Assembly: GCF_030013595.1 (NCBI RefSeq) | Contig: NZ_CP122768.1 | Strand: one strand, 5' to 3' | Origin: Escherichia coli | GTDB lineage: Bacteria > Pseudomonadota > Gammaproteobacteria > Enterobacterales > Enterobacteriaceae | DNA length: 64,000 nucleotides | Shown: one piece after another, positions 21,601-24,719 of the stretch | Layout of the letters: each line of letters begins with the position of its first letter | How positions within the stretch are numbered: the first letter of the stretch is position 1 | Program-made: the position numbers and the translations under genes | Notes under the pieces: model-generated | The model's database searches: none | What the model saw: the letters and a program-made list of their open reading frames with translations, nothing else | What the model was told of the DNA's origin: nothing

Positions 21601-23579
<1,979 letters not shown>

Positions 23580-23581
<2 letters not shown>

Positions 23582-24719
23582 GTCAGAGCCCCTCGATCTC
23601 AATCAGTTAGCGCAAAATATTAAACAGTGGGGGCTGGAACTGGGCTTTCAGCAGGTAGGTATTACCGATACCGATCTCAGCGAGTCCGAGCCCAAACTGC
23701 AAGCATGGCTGGACAAACAATACCACGGCGAAATGGACTGGATGGCGCGTCACGGTATGCTGCGCGCTCGCCCCCATGAGTTATTGCCCGGTACGCTGCG
23801 CGTGATCAGCGTGCGGATGAATTACCTTCCTGCTAACGCCGCATTTGCCAGCACGCTGAAAAACCCTAAGCTCGGCTATGTGAGCCGTTATGCGCTGGGC
23901 CGTGACTACCACAAACTTCTGCGCAACCGACTCAAAAAGCTGGGCGAGATGATTCAGCAACATTGTGTTTCGCTGAATTTTAGACCGTTTGTCGATTCTG
24001 CGCCTATTCTCGAGCGCCCGTTAGCTGAAAAAGCAGGACTTGGCTGGACAGGTAAGCACTCACTTATCCTCAATCGCGAGGCCGGTTCGTTCTTCTTTTT
24101 AGGCGAATTGCTGGTCGATATTCCTCTGCCCGTGGATCAACCAGTCGAGGAAGGATGCGGTAAATGCGTGGCCTGTATGACGATTTGCCCGACCGGAGCC
24201 ATCGTCGAGCCATATACCGTCGATGCTCGCCGCTGTATCTCTTATCTCACCATCGAACTGGAGGGGGCGATCCCGGAAGAGTTGCGACCGTTAATGGGAA
24301 ATCGTATTTATGGTTGCGATGACTGCCAGCTTATCTGCCCGTGGAATCGCTATTCGCAACTCACTACAGAAGACGATTTCAGCCCGCGTAAGCCGCTACA
24401 CGCACCGGAACTCATTGAGTTATTCGCCTGGAGTGAAGAGAAGTTTTTAAAAGTCACGGAAGGTTCGGCGATTCGCCGTATAGGTCACCTGCGTTGGCTG
24501 CGTAATATTGCCGTAGCCTTAGGCAATGCGCCCTGGGATGAAACGATTCTGGCGGCGCTGGAAAGTCGTAAAGGTGAGCACCCACTTCTTGATGAGCACA
24601 TAGCGTGGGCGATTGCGCAGCAAATCGAGAGACGAAATGCGTGCATAGTCGAAGTGCAATTGCCGAAAAAACAGCGTCTGGTTCGGGTAATTGAAAAAGG
24701 GTTACCGCGTGATGCCTGA
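23580..24719 (+). CDS. queG: Epoxyqueuosine reductase QueG (YjeS), 4Fe-4S protein, 379 aa
   Basis: ORF 23472..24719 trimmed to ATG at 23580 ([18 protein letters not shown]...); CxxCxxC ferredoxin-type motifs. Confidence 0.9.

What the first reader, a model, noticed from the sequence alone, without database searches (positions are those of the whole stretch)
23579..23582. nnr and queG appear to start back-to-back on opposite strands with overlapping start codons
The tetranucleotide CATG at 23579-23582 supplies ATG for queG on the plus strand (23580-23582) and, on the minus strand, the ATG I chose for nnr (23579-23581). If both starts are real the two divergent genes have no intergenic promoter space, so their promoters must lie inside each other's coding sequence.
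Basis: inference. Interest (0 to 1): 0.2.

Follow-up and report, generated by a model that had tools for sequence, protein, structure and literature searches.

The report
Head-to-head overlapping nnr and queG starts
Two E. coli genes on opposite strands, nnr and queG, start on the same four bases (CATG), so each gene's promoter sits inside the other gene; the layout is real and rare, conserved across enteric bacteria, and already annotated and catalogued.

Summary
CATG at 23579-23582 gives the queG ATG (+, 23580-23582) and the nnr ATG (-, 23581-23579). RefSeq/PGAP and K-12 MG1655 (b4166/b4167) annotate the same 2-nt head-to-head overlap.

The upstream nnr start (M1) is favoured:
- Its ATG is kept in 30 of 30 Enterobacterales genera.
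- It has the better Shine-Dalgarno sequence (-7.2 vs -3.2 kcal/mol).
- The internal ATG (M6) is replaced by non-start codons in many genera.

The inference about promoters is supported. Published K-12 RNA-seq operon ends place:
- the queG start at about window 23556, inside nnr codon 9, after an extended -10 (TGgTATACT, 23540-23548);
- the nnr operon start at about 23969, inside queG codon 130, after TAAAAT (23982-23977).

The two mRNAs are complementary over 413 nt. dsRNA pull-down and p19 capture recover that stretch. Both -10 elements are frozen at synonymous sites, using the rare codons ATA and AGA.

The queG-nnr pair is already listed as one of 16 core divergent "excludons" of E. coli. 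This is ordinary, known biology in a rare layout: only 2 divergent overlapping pairs were reported for E. coli. No direct N-terminal or start-site profiling data were found.

The parts
23579..23582 (.). CATG junction: queG ATG on + (23580-23582) and nnr ATG on - (23581-23579), a 2-nt CDS overlap
   Evidence: Sequence. Identical annotation in RefSeq genomes and K-12. Conserved in 30/30 Enterobacterales genera examined.
22034..23581 (-). nnr (yjeF) CDS, 515 aa, bifunctional NAD(P)HX epimerase/dehydratase; first gene of the nnr-tsaE-amiB-mutL... operon
   Evidence: ORF list. Pfam YjeF_N 40-199 and Carb_kinase 257-496. PDB relatives such as 2ax3. Annotation.
23580..24719 (+). queG (yjeS) CDS, 379 aa, epoxyqueuosine reductase
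   Evidence: ORF list. Pfam QueG_DUF1730 and Fer4_16. Aligns to B. subtilis QueG 5d08 from residue 6. Annotation.
23540..23548 (+). queG promoter: extended -10 TGgTATACT, lying in nnr codons 12-14 (AGT ATA CCA on the - strand)
   Evidence: It lies 8 nt upstream of the mapped queG 5' end. nnr codons 12-14 show no synonymous variation in 30 genera, the lowest of 229 windows. A TGnTAnnnT motif lies 38-64 nt upstream of the queG start (mostly 38-50) in 18 of 23 distant or non-overlapping loci.
23556..23579 (+). queG 5' leader (about 24 nt), antisense to nnr codons 1-9; no Shine-Dalgarno above background; weakly structured
   Evidence: The edge of the Conway overlap region, 4392114 (NC_000913.2), maps to window 23556. 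p19 reads reach 4392109. Anti-SD duplex -2.7 kcal/mol, at background. Fold z = +1.57.
23977..23982 (-). nnr operon promoter -10 element TAAAAT (read on the - strand), inside queG codons 133-135 (AAT TTT AGA)
   Evidence: It lies 8 nt upstream of the mapped nnr 5' end. GGTCTAAAATTCAGCG is invariant in 18 Enterobacteriaceae genera and includes the rare Arg codon AGA. Arg is CGN outside the family. yjeF-yjeE-amiB-mutL is preferentially transcribed by E-sigma70 in vitro.
23582..23969 (-). nnr 5' leader (about 388 nt), antisense to queG codons 1-130
   Evidence: Conway operon promoter P 4391701 maps to window 23969. No Rfam family matches it.
23589..23594 (-). nnr Shine-Dalgarno GAGGGG (complement of queG codons 4-5, CCC CTC)
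   Evidence: Anti-SD duplex -7.2 kcal/mol for M1 against -3.2 for M6. queG codons 4-6 are the lowest synonymous-entropy window of 253. CTC also persists where nnr is not adjacent, so this constraint is only partly attributable to nnr.
23564..23566 (-). Alternative in-frame nnr ATG (M6, MKKNPVSI...)
   Evidence: Not conserved as a start: V, L, I, E, K, R or Q in other genera. Weak SD. It is the only in-frame start in one soil MAG, L019.
23556..23969 (.). 413-414 nt over which the two divergent mRNAs are complementary (dsRNA-forming region)
   Evidence: Conway overlap 413 nt. Lybecker dsRNA MS-212 4391717-4392100. p19 clusters 4391754-4392109 and 4391759-4392107. Coordinate mapping verified. Listed as the queG-nnr divergent excludon.
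24702..24755 (-). yjeV-like 17-aa CDS overlapping the queG 3' end; reported to be co-transcribed with nnr across antisense queG
   Evidence: Annotation. ExcludonFinder lists yjeV-queG-nnr as a noncontiguous operon. Not tested here.

Best explanation
nnr and queG are a true head-to-head overlapping gene pair. Their start codons share the palindrome CATG, and each gene is transcribed from a sigma70-type promoter embedded in the other's coding sequence, a face-to-face arrangement.

**queG side.**
- queG is transcribed from an extended -10 promoter (TGgTATACT, 23540-23548) written on the complement of nnr codons 12-14.
- Transcription starts near 23556 and gives a 24-nt leader without a Shine-Dalgarno sequence.

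**nnr side.**
- nnr is the first gene of the nnr-tsaE-amiB-mutL-miaA-hfq... operon.
- It is transcribed from a promoter whose -10 (TAAAAT, 23982-23977) is written on the complement of queG codons 133-135.
- Transcription starts near 23969. The 388-nt leader runs antisense through the first 130 codons of queG.
- Translation starts at M1, using a GAGGGG Shine-Dalgarno that is the complement of queG codons 4-5.

**Consequence.** The two mRNAs are complementary over about 413 nt, pair in vivo, and are cut by RNase III.

**Shown, here or in the cited data:**
- the sequence and its annotation;
- the mapped transcript ends;
- recovery of dsRNA from this stretch;
- the cross-genus conservation and the freezing of codon choice.

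**Inferred:**
- that the named hexamers are the functional -10 elements;
- that M1 is the main nnr start;
- any regulatory effect of the overlap.
For: **Sequence and annotation.**

**nnr start at M1.**
- The M1 ATG is present in 30 of 30 Enterobacterales genera. The N-terminus reads MTDH... and synonymous changes occur (GAC/GAT, ACG/ACT, ATA/ATT).
- The only indel in this stretch, in L008, is in frame (12 nt).
- M6 is replaced by non-start codons in many genera.
- The SD duplex is -7.2 kcal/mol for M1 and -3.2 for M6. Random 22-mers give -2.8 +/- 2.4.
- Where nnr does not overlap queG (Brenneria, Pectobacterium, Photorhabdus, Xenorhabdus), the 10-12 nt before the queG ATG are not conserved. 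The conservation of GGTCCGTC elsewhere is therefore best explained by nnr coding.

**queG start.**
- N-terminal conservation begins at M1.
- The solved B. subtilis QueG aligns from residue 6.
- The mapped 5' end at 23556 lies downstream of the only upstream in-frame start, GTG at 23472.

**Transcript ends and dsRNA.**
- Conway P 4391701 and the 413-nt overlap ending at 4392114; Lybecker dsRNA 4391717-4392100; p19 clusters 4391754-4392109.
- The conversion to window coordinates was verified base by base.

**Embedded promoters.**
- nnr codons 12-14 (AGT ATA CCA) show zero synonymous variation in 30 genera, the lowest of 229 windows.
- queG codons 133-135, with the rare AGA, show zero variation in 18 Enterobacteriaceae genera.
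- TGnTAnnnT lies upstream of queG in 18 of 23 other loci, whether or not nnr overlaps.

**Other published support.**
- yjeF-yjeE-amiB-mutL is preferentially transcribed by E-sigma70 in vitro.
- queG-nnr is listed among 16 core divergent excludons found in at least 50% of 58 MG1655 RNA-seq samples.
Against: - **No direct start-site data.** I found no N-terminal or initiation-site evidence for either protein.
- **Transcript ends are indirect.** They come from RNA-seq coverage, not 5'-triphosphate-specific mapping. I read them second-hand from another paper's supplementary table, because Conway's own tables were not held. That table lists no antisense TSS from Thomason or Dornenburg for this cluster.
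- **Weak consensus match.** The consensus promoter scan found nothing at 9 of 12 matches in 23000-24200. Neither promoter has a recognisable -35.
- **A counter-example for M1.** In one soil MAG (L019) a 1-nt indel leaves only the M6-equivalent ATG in frame. The first five residues are therefore dispensable, or that assembly is wrong. Dual initiation in E. coli is not excluded.
- **Ambiguous SD constraint.** The frozen CCC/CCT CTC GAT in queG codons 4-6 also occurs where nnr is not adjacent. It cannot be assigned solely to the nnr SD.
- **Limited range of the nnr promoter.** The -10 is conserved only within Enterobacteriaceae.
- **Possible second origin of nnr transcription.** The noncontiguous-operon report implies that some nnr transcription starts further upstream, near yjeV.
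Confidence: 0.85

Rival explanations
1. nnr really starts at the internal ATG (23566-23564, MKKNPVSI...). The two coding sequences then do not overlap and are separated by a 13-nt spacer. The upstream ATG is just the complement of sequence next to the queG start.
For: - The internal codon is an ATG in E. coli and about 9 of 30 genera.
- In the soil MAG L019 only this ATG is in frame with the rest of nnr.
- The YjeF_N domain starts at about residue 40, so either start yields a complete enzyme.
- No proteomic or initiation-profiling data settle the matter.
Against: - M6 is V, L, I, E, K, R or Q in most genera. Several of these (Yersinia, Serratia, Rahnella, Budvicia) have no other start codon before the conserved S(I/L)PH motif, so M1 must be used there.
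- M1 has a GAGGGG SD at good spacing (-7.2 kcal/mol). M6 has only background complementarity (-3.2).
- Codons 2-4 are conserved as amino acids, with synonymous changes and an in-frame indel nearby.
Confidence: 0.08
2. queG starts somewhere other than 23580, either at the upstream in-frame GTG at 23472 or at a downstream codon. The apparent overlap would then be an annotation artefact.
For: - The ORF stays open upstream to GTG 23472.
- The queG ATG has no Shine-Dalgarno above background.
Against: - The mapped 5' end at 23556 lies downstream of GTG 23472.
- Protein conservation (MS.PLDLNQLAQ.IK) begins exactly at this ATG in all Enterobacterales.
- Solved QueG homologues align from residue 6.
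- The next in-frame ATG is codon 52. Starting there would remove about 50 conserved N-terminal residues.
Confidence: 0.03
3. The starts and embedded promoters are as described, but the overlap has no regulatory role. It would be a neutral end-point of spacer shrinkage: nnr acquired an upstream ATG within an already tiny spacer. The antisense RNA and its RNase III cleavage would be tolerated by-products.
For: - Related gammaproteobacteria show a continuum of arrangements: spacers of 3-20 nt, a 1-nt overlap (CAATG), a 2-nt overlap (CATG) and longer spacers. This is what start-codon drift would give.
- The nnr promoter position is conserved only within one family.
- No study found here shows reciprocal expression of queG and nnr. 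They are only catalogued.
Against: - The tight head-to-head pairing is kept across several orders.
- It is detected as an excludon in at least half of 58 transcriptomes.
- None of these points proves function.
Confidence: 0.55

Closest known systems
Divergent excludon (overlapping 5' transcripts of neighbouring opposite-strand genes; Listeria mogR/fli paradigm; E. coli excludome of ExcludonFinder, NAR 2025, PMC12288877)
   Same: - The genes are divergent neighbours whose mRNAs overlap at their 5' ends, here by about 413 nt.
- dsRNA from this stretch is recovered by antibody pull-down and by p19 capture of RNase III products.
- The pair queG-nnr is itself listed among the 16 core divergent excludons of MG1655.
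   Different: - The coding sequences themselves overlap, and both promoters lie inside the partner's CDS. The cited study reports a mean intergenic distance of 95 nt for E. coli excludon pairs.
- Mutually exclusive expression, the functional hallmark, has not been shown for this pair.
Face-to-face (convergently firing) divergent promoter pairs, as classified for divergent gene organisation (for example ilvY-ilvC, cited in Conway 2014); the classification itself is from my own knowledge
   Same: Each promoter lies downstream of the other's start point, so RNA polymerases travel towards each other and the transcripts are complementary.
   Different: Classic cases sit in an intergenic regulatory region with a shared regulator. 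Here there is no intergenic DNA and no known regulator.
Extended -10 (TGn) sigma70 promoters
   Same: - TG lies one base upstream of a TATACT/TAAACT hexamer.
- There is no recognisable -35.
- The mapped 5' end lies 8 nt downstream.
   Different: - The element is overprinted on a protein-coding sequence, the Nnr S-(I/L)-P-H motif.
- Promoter activity has not been measured.
Noncontiguous operon (Saenz-Lahoya 2019; S. aureus menE-menC...ytkD)
   Same: ExcludonFinder lists yjeV-queG-nnr as one of three E. coli cases. yjeV and nnr would be co-transcribed across an oppositely oriented queG.
   Different: - This was not examined here.
- An internal nnr promoter at 23969 already accounts for the dsRNA boundaries.
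- The yjeV-to-nnr read-through transcript was not verified.

Membership tests
Head-to-head (divergent) overlapping gene pair | Two protein-coding genes on opposite strands whose 5' coding ends share nucleotides | tested here: met
   CATG at 23579-23582. The 2-nt overlap is annotated in three RefSeq records.
Head-to-head (divergent) overlapping gene pair | Both annotated start codons are the ones used in vivo | tested here: inconclusive
   Comparative and SD evidence favours nnr M1 and queG M1. No N-terminomics or initiation-profiling data were found.
Divergent excludon | Neighbouring divergent genes with overlapping 5' transcripts | tested here: met
   Published transcript ends give a 413-nt overlap, which maps to window 23556-23969. 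The pair is listed as an excludon in at least 50% of 58 RNA-seq samples. This rests on literature data; no new RNA data were produced here.
Divergent excludon | The overlapping RNAs pair and are processed by RNase III | tested here: met
   Lybecker dsRNA locus MS-212 and p19-captured 21-22-nt duplex reads on both strands across the overlap. This is literature data.
Divergent excludon | Expression of one gene represses the other (mutually exclusive expression) | not testable with these tools
   No expression data for queG against nnr under promoter or rnc perturbation were found.
Extended -10 sigma70 promoter (queG) | TGn immediately upstream of a -10 hexamer with A at position 2 and T at position 6 | tested here: met
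   TGgTATACT at 23540-23548. TGnTA(T/A)ACT is found in all 30 overlapping genera and in 18 of 23 other loci.
Extended -10 sigma70 promoter (queG) | A transcript 5' end 6-8 nt downstream of the hexamer | tested here: met
   The RNA-seq-derived end 4392114 maps to window 23556, 8 nt after TATACT. It is not 5'-PPP-specific.
Extended -10 sigma70 promoter (queG) | Promoter activity that depends on the element | not testable with these tools
   This needs reporter fusions or in vitro transcription with point mutants.
Sigma70 promoter inside queG (nnr operon) | A -10 hexamer at the right distance from the mapped 5' end, under selection | tested here: met
   TAAAAT at 23982-23977 lies 8 nt before 23969. 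It is invariant, with the rare AGA codon, in 18 Enterobacteriaceae genera.
Sigma70 promoter inside queG (nnr operon) | A recognisable -35 hexamer at 16-18 nt spacing | tested here: not met
   The best candidate is TAGGCG, 3 of 6 matches at 18 nt, read. The consensus scan found no promoter at 9 of 12 matches.
Noncontiguous operon (yjeV-queG-nnr) | A single transcript joining yjeV and nnr across antisense queG | not tested
   Only the listing in PMC12288877 Table 1.

The most novel reading that the evidence does not exclude
The head-to-head nnr-queG junction could be a conserved antisense control module rather than a passive layout. Face-to-face promoters and the 413-nt RNase III-sensitive duplex would reciprocally tune two things. 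One is queG, which makes queuosine at tRNA position 34. The other is entry into the nnr-tsaE-amiB-mutL-miaA-hfq operon, which carries other tRNA-modification genes and hfq. The first roughly 15 residues of enterobacterial Nnr, including S-(I/L)-P-H, would then be a peptide overprinted on the ancient queG promoter and leader, kept for the DNA signal rather than for the protein.
Probability: 0.2. Interest if true: 0.45.

Novelty: already known. Interest (0 to 1): 0.2.

Why it matters
This is a clean natural example of how far bacterial genomes can compress signals. One stretch of DNA encodes two start codons, a ribosome-binding site, a promoter and two protein N-termini. The cost is visible as frozen, rare codons (ATA, AGA).

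It is useful as a test case in three ways:
- for gene callers, which tend to avoid divergent overlaps;
- for synonymous recoding or genome-refactoring projects, because "silent" changes at nnr codons 12-14 or queG codons 133-135 would probably hit promoters;
- for studies of antisense and excludon regulation.

It does not change the current understanding of either gene, and the arrangement is already in the standard annotation and transcriptome catalogues.

Tried and rejected
- **Consensus promoter and terminator scan of 23000-24200.** No promoter at 9 of 12 matches. One weak terminator-like site at 23886-23869 (-), against 1.3 expected by chance. The scan is uninformative because both promoters lack a -35.
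- **Direct start-codon evidence.** I searched the supplements of TRAINSPOTTER, INRI-seq and a Salmonella riboproteogenomics paper. There was nothing for nnr or queG; the single INRI-seq hit was an unrelated off-target list. The supplements of the Ribo-RET preprint are not held.
- **Independent TSS data.** Conway 2014 supplements are not held. Thomason 2015 is not in the library. The SMRT-Cappable-seq supplements do not mention the genes. Conway's coordinates were therefore taken from Huang 2020 Table S1.
- **Rfam scan of 23300-24200 at E <= 1.** No RNA family matches the long nnr leader.
- **Attributing the frozen queG codons 4-6 (CCC CTC GAT) wholly to the nnr SD.** Rejected as sole cause, because Photorhabdus and Xenorhabdus keep CCT CTC GA(T/C) without an adjacent nnr.
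- **The 60-aa antisense ORF opening 6 nt after the nnr 5' end (23963-23781).** Rejected as a gene, because its ATG is not conserved.
- **Genome-wide count of divergent overlaps.** Not recomputed. I relied on Huvet & Stumpf 2014, who report 2 divergent among 663 overlapping pairs but do not name them.

Full report
**Observation**

The sequence reads ...ggtccgtc|atgtcagag..., with c at 23579 and atg at 23580-23582. CATG at 23579-23582 therefore supplies the queG ATG on the plus strand (23580-23582) and the nnr ATG on the minus strand (23581..23579).

The window is Escherichia coli. It is 100% identical to strain 104 and at least 95% identical over this kilobase to 5,424 of 5,426 complete genomes. 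The local gene order is:
- mutL, amiB, tsaE and nnr on the minus strand;
- queG on the plus strand;
- a 17-codon yjeV-like CDS, three tRNA-Gly genes and orn on the minus strand;
- rsgA on the plus strand.

PGAP annotation of two strains has the same 2-nt head-to-head overlap. So does the K-12 MG1655 record (queG 4392928..4394067 minus, nnr 4394066..4395613 plus). Gene identities were confirmed by Pfam: YjeF_N plus Carb_kinase for nnr, QueG_DUF1730 plus Fer4_16 for queG. They were also confirmed by solved homologues.

**Are the start codons right?**

A scan of one genome per species returned 80 queG loci. In 29 further Enterobacterales genera, nnr begins on the base adjacent to the queG ATG, with the same CATG. 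These run from Escherichia albertii through Citrobacter, Enterobacter, Pantoea, Serratia, Yersinia, Rahnella and Budvicia to Edwardsiella.

Evidence for nnr M1:
- The M1 ATG is present in 30 of 30 genera.
- Residues 2-4 are mostly T-D-H, and synonymous changes occur (GAC/GAT, ACG/ACT, ATA/ATT).
- The only indel nearby is 12 nt, so it is in frame.
- Position 6 is Met in only 9 of 30 genera. Elsewhere it is V, L, I, E, K, R or Q.
- In Yersinia, Serratia, Rahnella and Budvicia there is no other start codon before the conserved S(I/L)PH motif, so M1 must be used there.
- M1 is preceded by GAGGGG at good spacing. Its duplex with the 16S tail is -7.2 kcal/mol. M6 gives -3.2, against a background of -2.8 +/- 2.4.
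- Where nnr does not overlap queG (Brenneria, Pectobacterium, Photorhabdus, Xenorhabdus), the bases just before the queG ATG are not conserved. The conservation of ATGGTCCGTC elsewhere is therefore best explained by nnr coding.

Evidence for the queG start:
- Protein conservation starts at this ATG.
- B. subtilis QueG (5d08) aligns from residue 6.
- The next in-frame ATG is codon 52.
- The only upstream in-frame start, GTG 23472, lies upstream of the mapped mRNA 5' end.

Caveats:
- No N-terminal proteomics or initiation-profiling record for either protein was found.
- One soil MAG (L019) has a 1-nt indel that leaves only the M6-equivalent ATG in frame.
- Minor or dual use of M6 in E. coli therefore cannot be excluded.

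**Where are the promoters?**

Published K-12 data agree. Huang et al. 2020 (PMC7373196) list yjeS/yjeF among the 20 most abundant coding-gene clusters of p19-captured dsRNA in stationary phase, classed as a 5' overlap.

Their Table S1 collates the following:
- p19 clusters at 4391759-4392107 and 4391754-4392109;
- the Lybecker et al. dsRNA locus MS-212, classed "Divergent", at 4391717-4392100;
- the Conway et al. 2014 operon with promoter at 4391701 and terminator at 4408049 on the plus strand, overlapping the divergent operon by 413 nt (region 4391701-4392114).

These are NC_000913.2 coordinates. I verified the conversion (window position = 4415670 minus the coordinate) against K-12 sequence and a listed read. 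There were 7 mismatches in 471 nt and no indels.

The mapping gives:
- a queG mRNA 5' end at window 23556 (+), inside nnr codon 9;
- an nnr operon 5' end at window 23969 (-), inside queG codon 130.

The queG leader is about 24 nt, has no Shine-Dalgarno sequence, and is less structured than shuffled controls. The nnr leader is about 388 nt, is antisense to queG codons 1-130, and matches no Rfam family.

**Promoter elements and their evolutionary footprint**

*queG promoter.* Eight nucleotides upstream of 23556 lies TGgTATACT (23540-23548), an extended -10 with no recognisable -35.
- It is the complement of nnr codons 12-14 (AGT ATA CCA).
- Across 30 genera these three codons show no synonymous variation at all: Ser AGT 29/29, Ile ATA 18/18, Pro CCA 28/28.
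- Neighbouring four- and six-fold codons use 3-6 alternatives each.
- This is the lowest of 229 three-codon windows in the gene.
- A TGnTAnnnT motif, mostly TGGTAAACT, also lies 38-64 nt (mostly 38-50) before the queG start in 18 of 23 other loci. These include Vibrionales, Alteromonadales, Aeromonadales and Photorhabdus/Xenorhabdus, whether or not nnr overlaps.
- The queG promoter is therefore the older element. The enterobacterial Nnr N-terminus reads through it.

*nnr promoter.* Eight nucleotides upstream of 23969 lies TAAAAT (23982-23977, minus strand), the complement of queG codons 133-135 (AAT TTT AGA).
- GGTCTAAAATTCAGCG is invariant in 18 Enterobacteriaceae genera, while flanking synonymous sites vary.
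- It depends on the Arg codon AGA, which I know to be rare in E. coli.
- Outside the family Arg is CGN and the hexamer is lost. This promoter position is therefore family-specific.
- No good -35 is present, and the consensus scan found nothing.
- In vitro, yjeF-yjeE-amiB-mutL is transcribed preferentially by E-sigma70 (PMC3141248).

*queG codons 4-6.* These codons (CCC CTC GAT) are the complement of the nnr Shine-Dalgarno sequence. They form the most synonymously constrained window of queG (1 of 253). The same codons persist where nnr is not adjacent, so the cause is ambiguous.

**Wider distribution**

The divergent nnr-queG pairing is widespread in Gammaproteobacteria, with very short spacers:
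- Tolumonas has the same CATG.
- Three Alteromonadales genera (Bowmanella, Lacimicrobium, Neptunicella) have CAATG, where a TTG nnr start overlaps by 1 nt. In two of them it is the only candidate start.
- Several Alteromonadales have spacers of 3-20 nt.
- Aeromonas, Salinivibrio and others have 50-170 nt.

This looks like start-codon drift within an anciently tight junction.

**How it works, and what is known**

*Shown.* Two divergent mRNAs overlap by about 413 nt, and dsRNA from exactly this stretch is recovered in vivo, including the 21-22-nt RNase III products that p19 captures.

*Inferred.* Polymerases from the face-to-face promoters meet. The duplex may lower both mRNAs, which would be excludon-type control. 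No reciprocal-expression data exist for this pair.

*Already in the literature.*
- The arrangement is the standard annotation.
- Conway 2014 (PMC4161252) describes the yjeF...rlmB operon as the most complex in their data: 14 genes and 8 promoters.
- ExcludonFinder (PMC12288877) lists queG-nnr among 16 core divergent excludons in MG1655. It also lists yjeV-queG-nnr among three noncontiguous operons.

*Rarity.* Huvet & Stumpf 2014 (PMC4161906) count 663 overlapping adjacent pairs in E. coli, of which only 2 are divergent. They do not name the pairs. That nnr/queG is one of them is my inference.

**Verdict**

The feature is a real, rare and evolutionarily conserved layout. It is already annotated and catalogued, and nothing found here changes the understanding of either gene.

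What this analysis adds:
- the cross-genus evidence for the M1 start;
- the identification of the two embedded -10 elements;
- the frozen, rare-codon signature they impose.

Interest is low (0.2) and novelty is "already known".

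Noticed in passing
window 25176-25297: An insertion of about 122 nt lies in the spacer between the second and third tRNA-Gly(GCC) genes (tRNAs at 24989-25064, 25100-25175 and 25333-25408, minus strand). It is absent from K-12. It contains CACTCACCTTAGTCACTTACTT and TGTAAGCTCCCAAGGATTCG, which from memory resemble the two ERIC/IRU primer sites, so it is probably an ERIC element.
   Followed up: partly
window 24702-24755 (-): A yjeV-like 17-codon CDS is annotated overlapping the queG 3' end by 18 nt. The literature lists yjeV-queG as a convergent excludon and yjeV-queG-nnr as a noncontiguous operon.
   Followed up: partly
window 22034-22062: The nnr 3' end overlaps the tsaE start by 29 nt on the same strand, in the annotation and in the ORF list.
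   Followed up: no
L019:2440-2502: A soil MAG related to Enterobacteriaceae has a 1-nt indel between the M1 and M6 equivalents of nnr. Only the downstream ATG is then in frame with the enzyme. This is either an assembly error or a lineage that uses the shorter N-terminus.
   Followed up: no
window 23781-23963 (-): A 60-codon ORF antisense to queG opens with an ATG 6 nt after the mapped nnr 5' end. The ATG is GTG or CTG in related genera, so it is probably a chance ORF.
   Followed up: partly
window 23570-23572 (+): An out-of-frame ATG sits in the 24-nt queG leader. It is the complement of the nnr His4 codon and opens a 17-codon ORF ending at 23623. It is conserved only because His4 is conserved. 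A GGGG stretch lies upstream, with an anti-SD duplex of -6.2 kcal/mol.
   Followed up: no
window 23869-23886 (-): A weak terminator-like hairpin followed by a T-run lies inside the nnr leader, about 85-100 nt after its 5' end. One such site was found against 1.3 expected by chance, so it is not significant.
   Followed up: no
L049, L059, L071 (queG start regions): Three Alteromonadales genera (Bowmanella, Lacimicrobium, Neptunicella) have CAATG at the junction. A TTG nnr start overlaps the queG ATG by one base. In L049 and L071 it is the only candidate start before an upstream stop.
   Followed up: partly
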